Assembly: GCA_023401595.1 (NCBI GenBank)
Contig: JAEXDQ010000037.1
Span: forward strand, 31,701-95,700
Reading direction: 5' to 3'
Length of the DNA: 64,000 nucleotides
DNA from: Spirochaetota bacterium
GTDB taxonomy: Bacteria; Spirochaetota; Spirochaetia; Sphaerochaetales; Sphaerochaetaceae
Under the pieces are notes generated by a model, which worked only from the letters and a program-made list of their open reading frames with translations, had not been told where the DNA came from and did no database searches. Position 1 is the first letter of the stretch. Each line of letters opens with the position of its first letter. Both the position numbers and the translations under genes were made by a program. This document shows positions 37,400 through 46,369 of this stretch, one piece after another.

Positions 37400-37413
37400 T
37401 TTTCATATGAAAA
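37400..37413. promoter_or_regulatory. Perfect palindrome TTTTCATATGAAAA (candidate operator of HTH paralog 2)
   Basis: This perfect 14-bp palindrome lies 71 nt upstream of the GTG at 37484. Confidence 0.55.
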
Positions 37414-37483
37414 CATTTTTTCAAATACACCTTTAGTATTTCCAAATGGAAAATCACGACGAAAACGCAGGTACTATAGCGTC

Positions 37484-37861
37484 GTGACTGACTTTTGGAA
37501 ACGCACATTGCAGGCAATGGACGCAAATGGGCTCCACATGGCCGACATCTCCCGGCTGACTGGCATACCTTGCCCGACCATCTCCAATTGGATACGGTAC
37601 GACAGGTATCCGACGGTAGACAACGCGGCGAAGGTCGCCAACGTTTTGGGGGTATCGATGGAGTGGATGCTGACGGGTGTCGAGCCATACGAAGACTATG
37701 ACGAAGAAACCGATCCCCCACGTATCGCCCACCTGTTCAGAATCCTGCGGAAACTGGACGAGACGCAGCTCGACCTCATGGAGCCGGTCCTCGACTATAT
37801 GGCGGTCCGAGACGGCGGCTCCAACAGAAATATCAATAAAAAGAAAGAACCGGCGGTATAG
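37484..37861 (+). CDS. XRE/Cro-type HTH regulator, paralog 2
   Basis: VTDFWKRTLQAMDANGLHMADISRLTGIPCPTISNWIRYDRYPTVDNAAKVANVLGVSMEWML is followed by an acidic EPYEDYDEE linker and a C-terminal helix ETQLDLMEPVLDYM. The GTG start is set by conservation with 46001. The ORF-track extension to 37169 is rejected. Confidence 0.7.
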   Translation: MTDFWKRTLQAMDANGLHMADISRLTGIPCPTISNWIRYDRYPTVDNAAKVANVLGVSMEWMLTGVEPYEDYDEETDPPRIAHLFRILRKLDETQLDLMEPVLDYMAVRDGGSNRNINKKKEPAV

Positions 37862-37958
37862 GCGGGCTTGGACACTCCAAGTCCAATATATTCTGTAATA
37901 CTTCACTACACACATCATTGCGGTACTCTCCCCTTGCTTGACATATGAGGTGGAAGAG

Positions 37959-39806
37959 ATGATTCATAACATCACAATGGAACGAATCGCCTGTTTTCGA
38001 GCCAGAAGGAAAATCAGATTCCACGCAGGCCTGAATCTGATCTTCGGAGACAACGGAACTGGAAAAAGTACTGTCGCGACCTACCTGTATTCACCGGAGA
38101 ACCCGTCATATGGTTCCTGCTCCATGCATATTGATACAAACGAAGACCTCTGCATCTACACGCAGGCGTTTGTCGATGACAACTTCTTCTTACACGACAG
38201 CCTGAAGGGCATCTTCATACTCTCAAAAACGAATAAATCAGTGGATGTCGCCATCGCCGCTTTGAATCGCCGCATATCCGCCATATCCCAGAACCAACAA
38301 CGCCTGAACGCGAATCTTGAAGAACTTCGGAAGAGTTTCCAAAAAAACAGGAATGAGGCGAGGGACCGGGTATGGGATTTGAAGCATCGCTACGGAGGAC
38401 ACGAAAACAAACTCGGTTTCTGTCTGGAAGGGCTTAAGGGGGACAAGGAGAAGCTGTTCGATTTCGTCAGGAAACAATACCCGCCTCTTACACCCCCTGA
38501 ATATACGCTTGAAGACCTCGCCTTTGAGGCGGCGAACAATAATCAGCCGCCAAGAAAAGCTACCACGTTTTTCAAGCTGCTGCCTGAACAGAAAATAATA
38601 TCGATTGAACAATCCCCCGCATGGCTGTTCCCGCAATGCAGCATCATGGACAACCAGGAAAATGCCCCTTGGCTTCTTCAGGGACTTGGGTTCCTTTCTG
38701 AATTTTTCATTGACACCCCCCAACGATGTCCGTTCTGTCAGCAAGAGACAGTGTCCCCCATGCTGGCACACTCGCTCACGGAGATTCTGGGCGTGTCCTA
38801 TATCGAGAGCCTTACAGACTTGTCCTGTTTGGAACAATCGTATCTGGGTCTGAGAGAAAGCTTGCTTCCGCTACAGAGTTACCTTCTGGACGACTATGTG
38901 CGACGGTACAAAGATGATTTCATCATCAGATATTGCGATACCCTCCGAATTTGGGAATACAATGGCAAATTGATCAGGATAAAACTTCGCGATCCCTCGC
39001 GATGTGTACGATTGCAGGATTCCATCACCCACGTAAGAGCGGTAAACAAAACGTTGGAACTAGCGAACTATCATAAGCAGATCCGGAACAAGCGGAACAT
39101 GGATCCGCTTGTTGTCAGGGCTACGCTCAAACGGAAGTTCTGGGAATGGGTCAGATGGGACTACGATCAGGTGATTCAATCTTTTGAACAAGCCTATGAG
39201 CGGTATGTGTCGGAAGTCTCCGTCTTGCGACAACGCCTAGCACGACTTGAAGAAGCGTTACGTACCGCCAAACAAGAGCGGGATGAGATACTTCTGTCGG
39301 TCTACGATGTCCAGGGTGCGGTCGATAGAATCAATTCCCGGCTGGCTGACTGGGGAATCAAGGACTTCTGCATTGCGAGATATGTCAACGACAGGTCTTC
39401 CAGAGAAGAGGGGTCACAGGACGGAGACGTGGAATTTTCCTATCGATACCGCTTGATACGTTCAGAAACTGGAGGCAATGTTTTTGCCAGCCTCAGTACG
39501 GGCGAAAAACAACTGATTTCTTTCTTGTATTTCTGCGAATCCTGTAAGCGGACACGGGCAGAGGATATGAGCAGGTCTTCTTCACAAAGCCAAAATAACG
39601 CCCCCCGGAAAGTAGTGATGATCGATGATCCAACGACCGGACTTTCTGCCCGTTACATCTCGCTGATTACAGAGCTGATTGAGGAACAGTTTCTATCTTG
39701 CGACACCGGATACACACAGGTGATCATACTGTCGCACGACAGAGGGTTTTTAGAGGAACTGGGAAAGAATCATGGGGCGGAGATCGTGGAGTTGGAGAAA
39801 GGGTAA
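37959..39806 (+). CDS. AAA_13-type ABC ATPase (RloC/PrrC-like) without a recognisable nuclease domain
   Basis: It has a Walker A (GDNGTGKST), a coiled-coil insert with a CPFC (CxxC) motif, the signature LSTGEKQL, a Walker B (VVMIDDP) and an H-loop (ILSHD). The protein ends about 25 aa after the H-loop. The ATG at 37959 follows GAGGTGGAAGAG. Confidence 0.7.
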   Translation: MIHNITMERIACFRARRKIRFHAGLNLIFGDNGTGKSTVATYLYSPENPSYGSCSMHIDTNEDLCIYTQAFVDDNFFLHDSLKGIFILSKTNKSVDVAIAALNRRISAISQNQQRLNANLEELRKSFQKNRNEARDRVWDLKHRYGGHENKLGFCLEGLKGDKEKLFDFVRKQYPPLTPPEYTLEDLAFEAANNNQPPRKATTFFKLLPEQKIISIEQSPAWLFPQCSIMDNQENAPWLLQGLGFLSEFFIDTPQRCPFCQQETVSPMLAHSLTEILGVSYIESLTDLSCLEQSYLGLRESLLPLQSYLLDDYVRRYKDDFIIRYCDTLRIWEYNGKLIRIKLRDPSRCVRLQDSITHVRAVNKTLELANYHKQIRNKRNMDPLVVRATLKRKFWEWVRWDYDQVIQSFEQAYERYVSEVSVLRQRLARLEEALRTAKQERDEILLSVYDVQGAVDRINSRLADWGIKDFCIARYVNDRSSREEGSQDGDVEFSYRYRLIRSETGGNVFASLSTGEKQLISFLYFCESCKRTRAEDMSRSSSQSQNNAPRKVVMIDDPTTGLSARYISLITELIEEQFLSCDTGYTQVIILSHDRGFLEELGKNHGAEIVELEKG

Positions 39807-40171
39807 GACCGGCTAGGTGCATAATCAAGGTCCATGACACCTTGCAAGTTCGTATGGACAATTTTTGTCCGCGGATGTATTGCATGGTAATCACATTGGA
39901 AAAACTCTTTTTCCATCAAACCGTTCACCGATGGTATACTACATTGGGTATACTGGGCTCAGGTACCGGCGCGGTCTTGCTGGGAGGACTCATGATGTGG
40001 GGGCTCCTGATGAGGAGGCTCAATCCAAGCCCCATGCTGTTCACCACCCATAGGCTTCGCGTCGTTCCGTTGAATCCTCCCCGTAGGAAGCGGGTATTGG
40101 CGACCATAGGCACAGTTCCGCATGGAATTCCCTTTCTGAACACAAGAGCCAAGCGGAACCACCGCCGACCG

Positions 40172-40720
40172 TCATAAATAGAATTTCGCAGGAATCTTGG
40201 CGTAGATATCGATGAGCCCCGCATTTCTTCTTGCCACCTGATTGTTGCTCGCCATAGTCCGGGCATCAGTGACAAACTCATTTTTCAACTCATAGATATC
40301 GTCAGCTACCGCCGATCGTATGAAGAGTGTCTCCACCCCTTCAGAACGGACCGACTCAGAAGTCAGGAATATAAATACCGTGATTTCTTGTTTCGGGTTC
40401 GTACTTGTTCCGATATCCGCGATCGCTTTTGTCAAGGAGTTGGTAAAGCTCGCTGGATGGTTATAGTCGGTGAGCATCCGTATATCCCCTCCGTTCACAG
40501 AATAGGACATGACGGTGAGTTTATCGGAAAATTTCGGCAGATTGAAAAAAATCCGAAGCGTATTCCCACCATGGGAGAAGTCTATCCACGTGCTGGAAGT
40601 CCGTGCATCCTGCGCCCACTCGCGCAAGAAGGAGAGCATCCTTCGAAAATTTCCGATAGTCAACGCTACATTCGTCGCATGAGCTTCGACTCCGAAATCG
40701 TATGTCGTATTGATTGCCAA
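40172..40720 (-). CDS. Uncharacterised 182-aa protein with RIP-like (rRNA N-glycosidase) motif order; last gene of the 8-gene operon
   Basis: A TTG start lies 7 nt after AAGGAG. The motif order resembles ricin A: an N-terminal NFRRMLSFLR-type helix, a beta-stretch ending MSYSV, and IFLTSESVRSEGVE (compare ricin IQMISEAARFQYIE, E-x-x-R). The coding call is solid, but the functional call is speculative. Confidence 0.55.
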   Translation of the reverse strand: MAINTTYDFGVEAHATNVALTIGNFRRMLSFLREWAQDARTSSTWIDFSHGGNTLRIFFNLPKFSDKLTVMSYSVNGGDIRMLTDYNHPASFTNSLTKAIADIGTSTNPKQEITVFIFLTSESVRSEGVETLFIRSAVADDIYELKNEFVTDARTMASNNQVARRNAGLIDIYAKIPAKFYL

Positions 40721-45731: not shown

Positions 45732-45788
45732 GTCCAACGCTCCTTCTCACCACTCTTTCCATTAGATACCTGAAGCATAGTCCGCTAT

Positions 45789-45809
45789 CCTGTTGGCAAC
45801 ACCAACAGG
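45789..45809. promoter_or_regulatory. Inverted repeat CCTGTTGG-N5-CCAACAGG in the operon's upstream region
   Basis: It has perfect 8-bp arms. A further CCTGTTGG copy lies at 45840-45847 and a CCTGTT copy at 45873-45878, all between the operon start and the divergent HTH gene. Confidence 0.4.
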
Positions 45810-45916
45810 GATGAAAAAAACGGTCACGTTTCTTTCGTCCCTGTTGGTGTCAAGAATTTTTTTAGAAACTTCCCTGTTCATAAACGATGGCAAAATTGCC
45901 AATATTACATTTTTTG

Positions 45917-45930
45917 TTTTCATATGAAAA
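45917..45930. promoter_or_regulatory. Perfect palindrome TTTTCATATGAAAA (candidate operator shared by HTH paralog 3 and the divergent 8-gene operon)
   Basis: It lies 71 nt upstream of the GTG at 46001 and 186 nt upstream of the operon's first ATG (45731) on the other strand. Confidence 0.55.
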
Positions 45931-46000
45931 TTATTTTCCAAATACAATCAATAAATTTTCAAATAGAAAATCGCGCCAAAAATGTAAGTAATATAATAAC

Positions 46001-46369
46001 GTGATAGACTTCTGGAAACATACATTGCAAGCAATGGATTCACAGAGAATCCATATGGCCGAAATCTCCCGGGCAACCGACATACCTTGTTCGACCATAT
46101 CCAACTGGATCCGGTACGACAGGCATCCGCCGGTAGACCTTGCTGCACGAATCGCCAACATCCTGGGGGTGTCGATGGAATGGATGTTGACCGGCGTCGA
46201 ACCTTATGAAGATTATGACGAAGACACCGACTCTGAACGAATCGTACATCTGTTCGGCGTCATCCGGCAATTGAACGAAACCCAGCTCGATCTCATGGAA
46301 CCAGTCCTCGACTACATGGTGAACAAGGACAGGCTCCAACAGAAGCCACCGCTGAAAAAGAAACGTTGA
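46001..46369 (+). CDS. XRE/Cro-type HTH regulator, paralog 3
   Basis: The GTG at 46001 is the first possible start, because an in-frame TAA lies at 45989-45991. MIDFWKHTLQAMDSQRIHMAEISRATDIPCSTISNWIRYDRHPPVD..GVSMEWMLTGVEPYEDYDED..ETQLDLMEPVLDYM is closely similar to paralog 2. Confidence 0.75.
   Translation: MIDFWKHTLQAMDSQRIHMAEISRATDIPCSTISNWIRYDRHPPVDLAARIANILGVSMEWMLTGVEPYEDYDEDTDSERIVHLFGVIRQLNETQLDLMEPVLDYMVNKDRLQQKPPLKKKR

What the first reader, a model, noticed from the sequence alone, without database searches (positions are those of the whole stretch)
37400..46369. About 460-bp direct-repeat modules (operator + HTH gene) bracket the 8.5-kb island; a third copy heads Wadjet
37400-37861 and 45917-46369 are colinear. 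They have the identical TTTTCATATGAAAA palindrome, an identical 71-nt distance to a GTG start in a conserved gtga..ga.tt.tgg context, and paralogous 122-125-aa HTH proteins. The proteins share DFWK.TLQAMD, ISNWIRYDR, GVSMEWMLTGVEPYEDYDE and ETQLDLMEPVLDYM. By eye, roughly three quarters of nucleotides match in the stretches I aligned. Both modules face the same way, so they are direct repeats flanking the ATPase and the eight-gene operon. A more diverged copy (6309-6757) sits directly upstream of jetA. This looks like a regulator-first cassette architecture, in which one regulator family is coupled to different defence cargos. The repeats are also substrates for recombinational loss or exchange of the intervening 8 kb.
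Basis: seen in the sequence. Interest (0 to 1): 0.7.

Follow-up and report, generated by a model that had tools for sequence, protein, structure and literature searches.

The report
Three paralogous repressor modules beside defence genes
Three old, diverged copies of a small self-regulating repressor gene, each with the same pair of operator sites, sit beside Wadjet, a candidate defence ATPase and an uncharacterised operon in a Sphaerochaeta-type genome. They look alike because selection conserves them, not because they are recent repeats likely to recombine.

Summary
Each of three colinear modules consists of about 100 nt of promoter/operator DNA plus a 120-125 aa XRE/CI-type HTH gene with a GTG start. 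The genes lie at 6395-6757 (A), 37484-37861 (B) and 46001-46369 (C). Similarity begins about 100 nt upstream of the start codon and ends at the stop codon.

New findings:
- Every module has two 14-bp palindromes (TTTYCAwwTGRAAA) exactly 39 bp apart, no Shine-Dalgarno sequence and a conserved GTG start. The same layout occurs in 13 modules from several Sphaerochaetaceae genomes.
- The copies are ancient: dS(B,C) = 1.13, and the longest tract identical between B and C is 14 nt, which is the palindrome itself. They are therefore poor recombination substrates. No hybrid or deletion variant was found.
- B and C do not bracket unrelated cargo. The AAA_13 ATPase (PADLOC PDC-S06), the DUF2589 operon and this HTH are linked in every lineage sampled. 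The ancestral order was operon <- HTH -> ATPase, with a single HTH.
- The A clade is stably tied to Wadjet. Other paralogues are orphans in the core genome.
- No partner protease or WYL domain is present, and the inducing signal is unknown.

Verdict: a new, narrow family of defence-associated autorepressors. The cassette idea is partly supported. The recombination idea is not.

The parts
6309..6322 (.). Operator O1 of module A (TTTTCAAATGAAAA)
   Evidence: It matches the consensus at 14 of 14 positions and starts 86 nt before the GTG.
6348..6361 (.). Operator O2 of module A (TTTCTATATGAAAT)
   Evidence: It starts 39 bp after the start of O1.
6395..6757 (+). HTH_A: a 120-aa XRE/CI-type repressor with a GTG start
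   Evidence: translation. HTH_3 E = 2.2e-7, Phage_CI_repr E = 2.2e-6. Orthologues lie upstream of jetA in L002 and L003.
6850..6918 (+). Conserved block immediately upstream of jetA, with a TATACT -10-like box and a TTTTCA half-site
   Evidence: The block is nearly invariant in the window, L002 and L003, whereas the preceding 90 nt are not. It suggests jetA has its own promoter or leader.
6919..13833 (+). Type I Wadjet: jetA 6919-8412, jetB 8399-9226, jetC about 9216-12620, jetD 12613-13833
   Evidence: PADLOC: JetA E = 7e-84, JetB E = 1e-37, JetC E = 1e-248, JetD E = 2e-80.
37400..37413 (.). Operator O1 of module B (TTTTCATATGAAAA)
37439..37452 (.). Operator O2 of module B (TTTCCAAATGGAAA, a perfect palindrome)
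   Evidence: It starts 39 bp after the start of O1.
37484..37861 (+). HTH_B: a 125-aa XRE/CI-type repressor with a GTG start and no Shine-Dalgarno sequence
   Evidence: AlphaFold2 model: five-helix HTH, linker at 65-78, helices at 79-90 and 93-112.
37914..37961 (+). Conserved ATPase leader that can pair CTCTCCCCTT with the Shine-Dalgarno/start region GAGGTGGAAGAGATG
   Evidence: The leader is invariant in four loci, including L020, where the HTH coding sequence is deleted.
37959..39806 (+). AAA_13 (SMC/ABC-like) ATPase of 615 aa, a PADLOC defence candidate (PDC-S06)
   Evidence: AAA_13 E = 7e-48. PDC-S06 E = 5e-111. Gene calls are given.
40172..45737 (-). Eight-gene operon. Three DUF2589 genes lie at 45036-45737, 44180-44755 and 43549-44127. 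They are followed by genes of 287, 212 and 128 aa, a 279-aa gene with an ACTMAP-like_C domain, and a 182-aa gene
   Evidence: There are no PADLOC, NCBIfam or PHROG hits. The DUF2589 trio is 79-99% conserved across loci, while the distal genes vary.
45789..45855 (-). Invariant hairpin element in the 5' region of the DUF2589 operon, between its first gene and O1
   Evidence: invariant in five loci, with variation only in the loop; folding z = -6.4; no Rfam family; one copy per locus.
45917..45930 (.). Operator O1 of module C (TTTTCATATGAAAA)
45956..45969 (.). Operator O2 of module C (TTTTCAAATAGAAA)
   Evidence: It starts 39 bp after the start of O1.
46001..46369 (+). HTH_C: a 122-aa XRE/CI-type repressor with a GTG start. 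It is divergent from the operon and has no co-oriented gene downstream
   Evidence: Its orthologue in L001 is 86% identical and in L012 98% identical. The next gene is a DUF4143 fragment on the minus strand.

Best explanation
Each module is a self-contained autoregulatory unit of a small CI/SinR/DdrO/CapH-like repressor. The protein has a five-helix XRE HTH, an acidic linker (EPYEDYDE), a two-helix C-terminal oligomerisation domain and a basic tail.

Proposed mechanism (inferred):
- Dimers, or a dimer of dimers, bind two 14-bp palindromes, O1 and O2 (consensus TTTYCAwwTGRAAA), that start 39 bp apart.
- O2 lies where a -35 element would be for a promoter whose AT-rich -10-like box ends a few nucleotides before a GTG start codon with no Shine-Dalgarno sequence. 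The mRNA is therefore probably leaderless or nearly so.
- Binding shuts off the repressor's own promoter and, with it, the neighbouring genes. For A these are jetABCD downstream. For B it is the AAA_13 ATPase downstream. For C it is the divergently transcribed DUF2589 operon.
- All paralogues keep the same recognition helix (S/PT[IF]SNWIR) and the same operator consensus. They probably cross-bind, which would put Wadjet, the ATPase and the operon under one shared repression circuit.

Origin:
- A, B/C and the core-genome orphans are old paralogues.
- The ancestral arrangement of the second locus was operon <- HTH -> ATPase.
- In the window lineage, a diverged HTH_B->ATPase pair sits on the far side of the operon. 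HTH_C has lost its own downstream ATPase. This produces the direct-repeat appearance.

Shown: the anatomy, the conservation, the linkage and the age of the copies. Inferred: DNA binding, control of the neighbouring genes, a leaderless mRNA and cross-talk. The inducing signal is unknown.
For: Family and fold:
- HTH_3 and Phage_CI_repr score above Pfam cut-offs.
- The AlphaFold2 model has pLDDT 75. Its best fold matches are SinR 1b0n and DdrO 6jq1, and its HTH superposes on P22 c2, 434 and C.AhdI with target-normalised TM-scores of 0.8.
- The best genuine full-length match in the PDB sequence search is DdrO, at E = 0.02 (two designed repeat proteins score better only by summing sub-threshold repeats).

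Operators:
- O1 and O2 are found in 13 of 13 modules. The spacing is 39 bp in 12 and 40 bp in 1, even though the spacer sequence differs.
- All five sites scoring at least 13 of 14 in the 64-kb window lie in the modules, against 0.13 expected. In the related loci such sites lie almost only upstream of the HTH genes.
- A distant relative (L027) has the same two-palindrome layout with a different half-site and a different recognition helix.

Selection rather than recency:
- dS(B,C) = 1.13 and dN/dS = 0.19.
- The upstream region is 70% identical, whereas synonymous sites are only about 42% identical.

Start codon:
- A GTG start sits three codons before the FW motif in 12 of 13 modules.
- No Shine-Dalgarno-like motif is present in 12 of 13 modules, against 25 of 41 other long ORFs that have one.

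Linkage:
- HTH->jetA occurs in the window, L002, L003 and L019.
- HTH, AAA_13 ATPase and DUF2589 operon are linked in the window/L006/L007, in L009/L012/L013, and in L001, L014 and L020.
- In L020, the decayed promoter/operator and the first codons of an HTH remain between the operon and the ATPase.
- HTH clades track their cargo.
Against: - No binding or expression data exist.
- The promoter scans found no strong sigma-70 match in the predicted positions.
- jetA and the ATPase each have their own conserved upstream block. Weak hairpins follow HTH_A and HTH_B. The neighbouring genes may therefore have their own promoters, and read-through is unproven.
- No full operator lies directly in front of any cargo gene.
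- The distance from O1 to the operon element varies from about 30 to 62 nt, and no conserved divergent promoter was recognised.
- 39 bp is not an integral number of helical turns.
- Leaderless GUG starts are inefficient in some bacteria (my own knowledge).
- HTH_C, L012, L015, L020 and the core orphans have no co-oriented cargo. The family is therefore not strictly a regulator that comes first in a cassette.
- The defence role of the DUF2589 operon is unsupported. It has no defence-database hits, and in Bacteroides fragilis DUF2589 genes sit in a fimbrial locus.
Confidence: 0.6

Rival explanations
1. One reading: the two modules are direct repeats that act as substrates for homologous recombination. 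The intervening 8 kb would then be an excisable or exchangeable island, and the family would be a mobile regulator-first cassette that swaps cargo.
For: - B and C are co-oriented and colinear over about 470 bp.
- The interior varies between strains. In L009/L012/L013 there is a 6.7-kb metabolic insertion and different distal operon genes.
- HTH_B and its ATPase are about 70% and 66% identical to the L001 pair, whereas the operon and HTH_C are 86-98% identical. This is consistent with HTH->ATPase moving as a unit.
Against: - The longest tract identical between B and C is 14 nt, overall identity is about 75%, and dS is 1.13. RecA-dependent recombination needs roughly 20-30 bp of identity and falls steeply with divergence (my own knowledge).
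- Both copies persist in all close strains.
- A search of the 5.8-billion-cluster collection with HTH_B returned only four clusters, none a B/C hybrid. L001 shows no mosaic pattern.
- Relatives with a single HTH keep both cargo units, one on each side, so they are not deletion products.
- No integrase or transposase lies at the borders, and GC content is not anomalous.
- The Wadjet locus is syntenic across genera.
Confidence: 0.07
2. The repressors form a CapH/DdrO-type switch. A dedicated M78 (ImmA/IrrE/CapP) metallopeptidase, activated by DNA damage or single-stranded DNA, cleaves the linker or C-terminal domain and de-represses the neighbouring genes.
For: - The architecture matches CapH and DdrO: an HTH, a linker and C-terminal oligomerisation helices.
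- There is a weak PADLOC capH hit over the C-terminal half (E = 5e-3).
- DdrO is the best full-length match in the PDB sequence search.
- The acidic linker is conserved.
Against: - No M78 peptidase or any other peptidase partner lies next to any of the modules or anywhere in the window genes scanned.
- The capH and DdrO similarities are marginal.
- The ACTMAP-like cysteine-protease-type protein in the operon belongs to the variable distal part and is absent or fragmentary in some loci.
Confidence: 0.15
3. The modules are domesticated or leftover immunity repressors of phages or integrative elements. They only regulate themselves, and their position next to defence genes is a by-product of island architecture.
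For: - Hits to Phage_CI_repr and to PHROG transcriptional-repressor families.
- Many copies head no cargo.
- One distant relative lies beside an integrase.
- L014 has an integrase about 5 kb downstream of the HTH gene.
Against: - Viral contigs contain no close relatives; the best hits are only 24-40% identical.
- No phage genes lie nearby.
- Linkage to the same two gene sets is kept across genomes where the proteins have diverged to 40-50% identity.
- In L020 the promoter/operator is retained in front of the ATPase after the HTH coding sequence was lost.
Confidence: 0.12

Closest known systems
CapH of the CapH-CapP module (CBASS-associated and other immune operons; bioRxiv 10.1101/2022.04.27.489752, PMC13228613)
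   Same: - A small XRE HTH (about 105-125 aa) with a C-terminal helical oligomerisation domain.
- It binds upstream of an immune operon and represses it.
- It is encoded at the head of defence operons.
   Different: - No adjacent CapP metallopeptidase.
- Only a marginal match to the capH HMM (E = 5e-3).
- Two operators at a fixed 39-bp spacing.
- Several paralogues per genome share one operator consensus.
- The neighbouring genes are Wadjet and an AAA_13/DUF2589 set.
DdrO-IrrE of Deinococcus (PMC12828697, PMC10904395)
   Same: - An XRE repressor whose C-terminal domain dimerises.
- It controls a regulon through a palindromic motif.
- It is the best full-length sequence match in the PDB and the second-best fold match (6jq1).
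   Different: - No IrrE-type protease was found.
- Identity is about 20-26%.
- The regulon here appears to be defence-type loci rather than DNA-repair genes.
SinR/SinI of Bacillus subtilis
   Same: - It is the top fold match (1b0n).
- It has an HTH plus a two-helix C-terminal multimerisation domain that a small antagonist can capture.
- It binds as a tetramer to paired operators.
   Different: - No SinI-like gene was identified.
- The biology is unrelated (biofilm formation).
Controller (C) proteins of type II restriction-modification systems, and lambda CI at PRM
   Same: - A regulator gene placed first, autoregulated through two adjacent palindromic operators.
- Transcripts that are typically leaderless (my own knowledge).
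- C.AhdI, C.BclI and C.Csp231I appear among the fold matches for the HTH.
   Different: - No R-M genes are present.
- The operators are 39 bp apart rather than abutting.
- There is an extra C-terminal domain.
- There is no PADLOC Control_protein hit for A, B or C.
BrxR/CapW (WYL domain), RptR and CapK/CapS regulators of defence islands (PMC9122601, PMC11662680, PMC12255303, PMC13373217)
   Same: The concept is the same: one regulator family, encoded first and repressing its own promoter, found with different defence systems.
   Different: - The folds are unrelated. This family has no WYL, STAS or RptR-type domain.
- No sensor domain or partner was recognised.

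Membership tests
XRE/Cro-CI HTH superfamily (Pfam HTH_3 PF01381, Phage_CI_repr PF07022) | A domain match above the curated cut-off | tested here: met
   HTH_3 scores 38.4, 30.7 and 31.3 bits for B, C and A (cut-off 23). Phage_CI_repr scores 30.0, 32.3 and 28.4 bits for B, C and A (cut-off 22).
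XRE/Cro-CI HTH superfamily (Pfam HTH_3 PF01381, Phage_CI_repr PF07022) | A five-helix HTH fold | tested here: met
   The AlphaFold2 model has helices at 3-15, 19-26, 30-38, 45-55 and 59-64. Target-normalised TM-scores to P22 c2, 434 and the SinR N-terminal domain are 0.8-0.85.
CapH-CapP regulatory module | A CapH-like repressor: HTH plus a C-terminal oligomerisation domain | tested here: inconclusive
   C-terminal helices are predicted at 79-112. The PADLOC capH match is only E = 5e-3. The oligomeric state cannot be tested here.
CapH-CapP regulatory module | An adjacent CapP (M78/ImmA-IrrE-type metallopeptidase) gene | tested here: not met
   No peptidase domain of this type was found in the neighbours of A, B or C, in the related loci, or elsewhere in the window.
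CapH-CapP regulatory module | The repressor is cleaved on DNA damage | not testable with these tools
   This needs biochemistry.
BrxR/CapW family | A wHTH-WYL-WCX domain architecture | tested here: not met
   Pfam shows only XRE-type HTH domains in proteins of 120-125 aa.
Type II R-M controller (C) proteins | The gene precedes, and is co-transcribed with, a restriction endonuclease gene, and C-box operators are present | tested here: not met
   No R-M genes are nearby. There is no PADLOC Control_protein hit for HTH_B. The operators are spaced 39 bp apart rather than abutting.
Wadjet type I (the gene set downstream of module A) | JetA, JetB, JetC and JetD all present, in that order | tested here: met
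   PADLOC JetA1, JetB1, JetC1 and JetD1 hits, with E-values from 1e-37 to 1e-248.
PADLOC candidate PDC-S06 (the gene downstream of module B) | A match to the PDC-S06 HMM and an AAA_13 ATPase domain | tested here: met
   PDC-S06 E = 5e-111 over 8-614. AAA_13 E = 7e-48. PDC-S06 is listed by PADLOC only as a candidate; whether it has been tested experimentally was not checked here.
Known defence systems (the DUF2589 operon) | Any protein matching a defence-system model | tested here: not met
   No significant PADLOC hit for the eight proteins (one marginal AbiEii match, E 6e-3) and no NCBIfam or PHROG hit. The AlphaFold2 model of a DUF2589 protein is poor and has no PDB fold match.

The most novel reading that the evidence does not exclude
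All paralogues, including a conserved core-genome orphan copy, keep one recognition helix and one operator consensus. They might therefore form a single, lineage-specific immune regulon in Sphaerochaetaceae. One as yet unknown signal would inactivate the shared repressor pool and switch on three loci together: Wadjet, the AAA_13 (PDC-S06) ATPase and the DUF2589 operon. The ATPase and the operon would then be the two halves of one undescribed multi-gene defence system, each with its own extra cis-element: a leader that sequesters the Shine-Dalgarno sequence, and an invariant 5' hairpin.
Probability: 0.2. Interest if true: 0.6.

Novelty: new member of a known kind. Interest (0 to 1): 0.38.

Why it matters
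Transcriptional control of bacterial immune systems is known for only a handful of regulator families (C proteins, BrxR/CapW, CapH-CapP, CapK-CapS, RptR).

This locus adds:
- a compact XRE family with a very clear, testable cis-architecture: two palindromes 39 bp apart and a GTG start with no Shine-Dalgarno sequence;
- a possible regulator for Wadjet;
- a case where several paralogues in one genome share an operator, which would couple different systems.

It also flags a conserved but uncharacterised partnership between an AAA_13 ATPase and a DUF2589 operon.

For genome scanning, it is a caution. Direct repeats 75% identical can be old paralogues held similar by selection, not recombination hot spots.

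Tried and rejected
1. Recent duplication or gene conversion between B and C. Rejected: dS is 1.13, the longest identical tract is 14 nt, and sliding windows show no mosaic.
2. A hybrid or deletion allele in relatives. A search with HTH_B found only four protein clusters, none hybrid. The single-HTH loci have a different, ancestral layout.
3. Extending the cargo catalogue. The genome, metagenome and viral scans gave only a few close relatives, all Sphaerochaetaceae-type. The rest were generic XRE hits.
4. A known RNA family for the invariant hairpin in the operon 5' region. Rfam gave nothing. The sequences are invariant, so there is no covariation to test.
5. Sigma-70 promoter scans. They gave no convincing promoter in any module, so the position of the transcription start remains inferred.
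6. The function of DUF2589. The literature search found one irrelevant mention. There were no hits in PADLOC, PHROG or NCBIfam. The AlphaFold2 model has pLDDT 61 and no PDB fold match. The Bacteroides fragilis context is a fimbrial locus.
7. A partner protease, kinase or WYL sensor. None was found in the window or the related loci. CapK/CapS is an unrelated STAS/kinase pair.
8. Foreign composition of the island. GC is 0.49-0.51, like the rest of the window.

Full report
OBSERVATION

The three modules exist as described. The GTG start codons are at 6395 (A, 120 aa), 37484 (B, 125 aa) and 46001 (C, 122 aa). The perfect palindrome TTTTCATATGAAAA lies at 37400-37413 and 45917-45930, and its last base is 71 nt from the first base of the start codon in both cases. 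A carries TTTTCAAATGAAAA at 6309-6322, with spacing 2 nt longer.

A formal three-way alignment gives 77% mean column identity. Pairwise coding-DNA identity is 76% (B/C), 67% (A/B) and 64% (A/C). Protein identity is 70%, 51% and 48%.

The 100 nt upstream of the start codon are 70% identical between B and C (z = 11 against shuffles). They are weakly but significantly similar to A (z = 5.1 and 3.8). Sequence beyond -100 and past the stop codon is unrelated (z about 0).

The palindrome, allowing up to one mismatch, occurs three times in 64 kb against 0.14 expected, and only at the modules.

ANATOMY OF A MODULE

I collected 13 modules: three from the window and ten from related loci. Every one has a second, less perfect palindrome (O2). 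It starts 39 bp after O1 in 12 modules and 40 bp after in one, even though the sequence between the two sites differs between clades. The joint consensus is TTTYCAwwTGRAAA.

In the window, all five sites scoring at least 13 of 14 lie in the modules, against 0.13 expected. In the other loci such sites lie almost exclusively upstream of the HTH genes.

O2 occupies -47/-45 to -34/-32 relative to the start codon. An AT-rich TATAT-type box lies 3-13 nt before the start. There is no Shine-Dalgarno-like motif in 12 of 13 modules, whereas 25 of 41 other long ORFs in the window have one. The start codon is GTG in 12 of 13 modules, always three codons before a conserved FW motif.

The N-terminal 11 residues are conserved at the protein level, and copy A lacks the internal ATG that gene callers used for B and C. 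The GTG is therefore the real start.

I infer a leaderless or nearly leaderless mRNA, with O2 over the -35 region. This is not shown, because simple sigma-70 scans were unconvincing.

THE PROTEIN

- Pfam assigns HTH_3 and Phage_CI_repr above cut-off.
- NCBIfam RstR and DicA, and PADLOC capH, match only weakly.
- The AlphaFold2 model (pLDDT 75) has five HTH helices (3-64), a low-confidence acidic linker (65-78, EPYEDYDE), two C-terminal helices (79-90 and 93-112) and a disordered basic tail.
- The best fold matches are SinR (1b0n) and DdrO (6jq1), both with low whole-chain TM-scores (0.44-0.52). The HTH alone superposes on P22 c2, 434, SinR, C.AhdI and the CapH N-terminal domain with target-normalised TM-scores of 0.7-0.85.
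- Apart from two designed repeat proteins that score by summed sub-threshold repeats, DdrO is also the best hit in the PDB sequence search, at E = 0.02.

The architecture therefore belongs to the repressor class whose C-terminal helices mediate the dimerisation or tetramerisation needed for DNA binding. This role has been shown for CapH (10.1101/2022.04.27.489752) and DdrO (PMC12828697).

AGE OF THE COPIES

dS(B,C) is 1.13, and dS between A and B or C is about 2. dN/dS is about 0.2. Synonymous sites are only about 42% identical between B and C, yet the upstream 100 nt are 70% identical. The promoter/operator region is therefore conserved by selection, not by recency.

The longest tract identical between modules B and C is 14 nt, and it is the palindrome itself. 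RecA-dependent recombination needs roughly 20-30 bp of perfect identity and drops steeply with divergence (my own knowledge: Shen & Huang 1986; Vulic et al. 1997). These repeats are therefore poor substrates.

WHAT LIES AROUND THE MODULES

Module A:
- It is followed by a complete type I Wadjet system, jetABCD (PADLOC E-values from 1e-37 to 1e-248).

Module B:
- It is followed, 97 nt later, by a 615-aa AAA_13 ATPase that matches the PADLOC candidate PDC-S06 (E = 5e-111).

The operon:
- The eight-gene operon (40172-45737) is on the minus strand.
- Its first three genes encode DUF2589 proteins. The others have no family assignment, except a 279-aa protein with an ACTMAP-like_C domain.
- None of the eight has a significant hit in PADLOC (one marginal AbiEii match, E 6e-3) and none hits NCBIfam or PHROGs.

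Module C:
- It is divergent from the operon and has nothing co-oriented downstream. The next genes are a DUF4143 fragment on the minus strand and an ATPase_2/DUF234 gene matching PDC-S27.

Partners:
- No M78 peptidase and no WYL domain were found anywhere in the window genes scanned.

RELATIVES

The family proper is narrow:
- A word-indexed search with HTH_B found four clusters.
- An exhaustive profile search of 1.84 billion representatives found four clusters at E <= 1e-30 and 71 at E <= 1e-10. Most of the latter were generic or multi-HTH proteins.
- The genome scan found five loci in two Sphaerochaetaceae MAGs.
- The metagenome scan found four further close loci of the same genome type.
- Viral contigs held only hits of 24-40% identity.

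Contexts fall into three groups.

Group 1, Wadjet:
- HTH->jetA occurs in the window, L002, L003 and L019.
- In L015-L018 the HTH follows jetABC, in the position where jetD would be.
- The locus keeps the same hexapeptide-repeat transferase gene as a neighbour across these genomes.

Group 2, AAA_13 ATPase plus DUF2589 operon, always linked, in four layouts:
- operon <- HTH -> ATPase (L001, L014);
- HTH -> ATPase -> <- operon, then HTH -> (the window, L006, L007);
- the same layout with a 6.7-kb PrpR-sulfatase-TctBAC insertion and different distal operon genes (L009, L012, L013);
- operon <- ATPase -> HTH -> (L020).

Group 3, core-genome orphans:
- These lie between glycogen phosphorylase (or TetR/MCRA genes) and DUF554/ClpB, sometimes as a tandem pair, with no defence genes nearby (L004, L005, L021-L026).

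Each of the two MAGs carries one Wadjet-linked copy, one ATPase/operon-linked copy and one orphan locus. The paralogue set therefore predates these genomes. A neighbour-joining tree groups the regulators by cargo.

ORIGIN OF THE BRACKET

In L020, the space between the operon and the ATPase still holds four remnants: a decayed O1, a degenerate O2 exactly 39 bp further on, the -10-like box, and a GTG followed by 13 codons (V-T-N-F-G...). These are fused upstream of the conserved ATPase leader. Three lineages therefore point to operon <- HTH -> ATPase as the ancestral layout.

Comparing the window with L001:
- HTH_C is 86% identical to the L001 HTH, and the DUF2589 genes are 89-98% identical. These are orthologous.
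- HTH_B is 72% identical to the L001 HTH, and the ATPase is 66% identical.
- B is more distant from C (70%) than C is from the L001 HTH.

So B is not a duplicate made in this lineage. It is an older paralogous or xenologous HTH->ATPase pair now placed on the other side of the operon, and HTH_C has lost its own ATPase. This supports the idea that HTH->ATPase travels as a unit. It also shows that the 8.5-kb "island" between the repeats is the very system the repressors belong to.

HOW IT MOST LIKELY WORKS

Inference, confidence about 0.6 for the core. Repressor dimers or tetramers occupy O1 and O2 and shut off their own promoter. With it they shut off the adjacent transcription units: jetABCD, the ATPase and the divergent operon.

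The recognition helix (S/PT[IF]SNWIR) and the operator consensus are shared by A, B, C and the orphans. Cross-binding is therefore likely.

How the neighbouring genes are coupled is uncertain:
- jetA has a nearly invariant 70-nt upstream block with a TATACT box.
- The ATPase has an invariant leader that can pair with its own Shine-Dalgarno sequence and start codon.
- Weak hairpins follow HTH_A and HTH_B.
- No full operator sits directly before any cargo gene.

The inducing signal is unknown. Cleavage at the linker, a SinI-like antagonist, or dilution on transfer to a new host all remain open.

COMPARISON AND NOVELTY

Regulator families that repress their own promoter and accompany diverse defence systems are already established:
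- BrxR/CapW (PMC9122601, PMC11662680);
- CapH-CapP (10.1101/2022.04.27.489752, PMC13228613);
- CapK-CapS (PMC13373217);
- RptR (PMC12255303);
- R-M C proteins.

This family works like CapH, DdrO or SinR, but it fails the CapH-CapP membership test because it has no adjacent peptidase. It has no WYL domain either. I file it as a new member of a known kind.

The more novel readings are a shared immune regulon with a core master copy, and AAA_13 plus DUF2589 as one new system. Neither is excluded, and neither is demonstrated.

SIDE FINDINGS

- An invariant hairpin element of about 67 nt sits in the operon 5' region (45789-45855; folding z = -6.4). It has no Rfam family and occurs once per locus.
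- jetD is lost or decayed in several relatives.
- DUF2589 proteins are about 50% identical between Sphaerochaeta and Bacteroides fragilis. In B. fragilis they lie within an Mfa-type fimbrial locus, which cautions against calling the operon a defence system.

Noticed in passing
window 45789-45855 (minus-strand sense); also L001 9784-9850, L012, L014 2696-2762, L020 5177-5243: An element of about 67 nt lies between the first DUF2589 gene and operator O1. It is invariant in five loci whose HTH proteins are only 46-86% identical. It forms a hairpin of about 21-25 bp, and the strand CCTGTTGG can alternatively pair with a downstream CCAACAGG. Variation is confined to the loop. Folding z = -6.4, there is no Rfam match, and there is one copy per locus. 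It is a candidate 5' leader or protein-binding site for the operon.
   Followed up: partly
window 37914-37961; L001, L014 and L020 upstream of the AAA_13 gene: The leader of the ATPase gene is invariant (CATCATTG..CTCTCCCCTTGCTT..ATGAGGTGGAAGAGATG). It is predicted to pair CTCTCCCCTT with the Shine-Dalgarno sequence, and ATCAT with the start-codon region. This suggests translational occlusion. The sequences do not vary, so covariation cannot be tested.
   Followed up: partly
L020 5296-5425: A decayed HTH module sits between the DUF2589 operon and the ATPase. It retains O1, a degenerate O2 39 bp later, a -10-like box, and a GTG followed by 13 codons. An intact HTH copy lies downstream of the ATPase (7947-8312).
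   Followed up: yes
L002 about 16150-16290; L003 16341-16484; L015 about 7870-8040: jetD is absent from L002 and L015-L018 and reduced to a 48-codon remnant in L003, while jetABC stay 77-91% identical to the window's genes. In L015 an HTH paralogue occupies the position of jetD.
   Followed up: partly
L004 8339-9144; L005/L021/L022 10001-10345; L023-L026: Core-genome orphan paralogues, single or as a tandem pair, lie in a housekeeping neighbourhood: rplKAJL-nusG-secE ... glycogen phosphorylase - HTH - DUF554 - ClpB. They carry the same operator type and recognition helix.
   Followed up: partly
window 13910-15609: Directly after jetD lies a gene pair matching PADLOC candidate PDC-M03A (a HipA_C-like kinase domain, E = 6e-32) and, weakly, PDC-M03B. 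The pair is conserved after Wadjet in L002 and L003.
   Followed up: no
window 36273-37104: Immediately upstream of module B lie two genes present in the window-type strains but not in L001. One is a 178-aa protein with a C-terminal XRE HTH (PADLOC HTH_VI E = 6e-12, capH E = 5e-8). The other, overlapping it, is a 104-aa ORF with no family.
   Followed up: no
L009/L012/L013 (contig SRR31127818_111717; GCA_030153665.1): This strain variant has a 6.7-kb PrpR-sulfatase-TctBAC cluster inserted between the ATPase and the operon. Its distal operon genes differ (159 and 222 aa instead of 182, 279, 128 and 212 aa). A second metabolic cluster (IclR-ILVD-DHDPS-TctBAC-sulfatase) lies after HTH_C. Both HTH copies are retained.
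   Followed up: partly
L031-L033 (Bacteroides fragilis-type contigs) 8524-9717: DUF2589 proteins are about 49% identical to the window's. They occur as a pair inside an Mfa-type (type V pilus) fimbrial gene cluster. DUF2589 is widespread in Treponema, Spirochaetia, Bacteroides and Calditrichaeota.
   Followed up: partly
window 46496-53697 and 22736-23947: A further cluster of defence- or TA-type genes:
- a DUF4143 fragment (46496-47014, minus strand);
- an ATPase_2/DUF234 gene matching PDC-S27 (47109-48497);
- hipBA (48739-50147, minus strand);
- AAA_14/DUF4143 ATPases (50327-51532 and 22736-23947);
- an rve integrase fragment (51790-52122);
- a Schlafen AlbA_2/HATPase_c_4 protein (52216-53697).
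   Followed up: no
window 44756-45035: An unexplained 280-nt non-coding gap lies between the first and second DUF2589 genes of the operon. It is also present in L006.
   Followed up: no
L027 6905-7000: A distant family member (P0071, an orphan beside GGDEF and PPDK genes) has two TTGCAwwTGCAA palindromes 52 bp apart and a different recognition helix. The two-operator layout is therefore family-wide, while the specificity has changed.
   Followed up: partly
window 1371-4201 versus 17999-20955: The window holds duplicated TRAP-type transporter gene pairs (NMT1_3 plus DctM, 44-51% identical paralogues) on opposite strands, flanking the Wadjet region.
   Followed up: no
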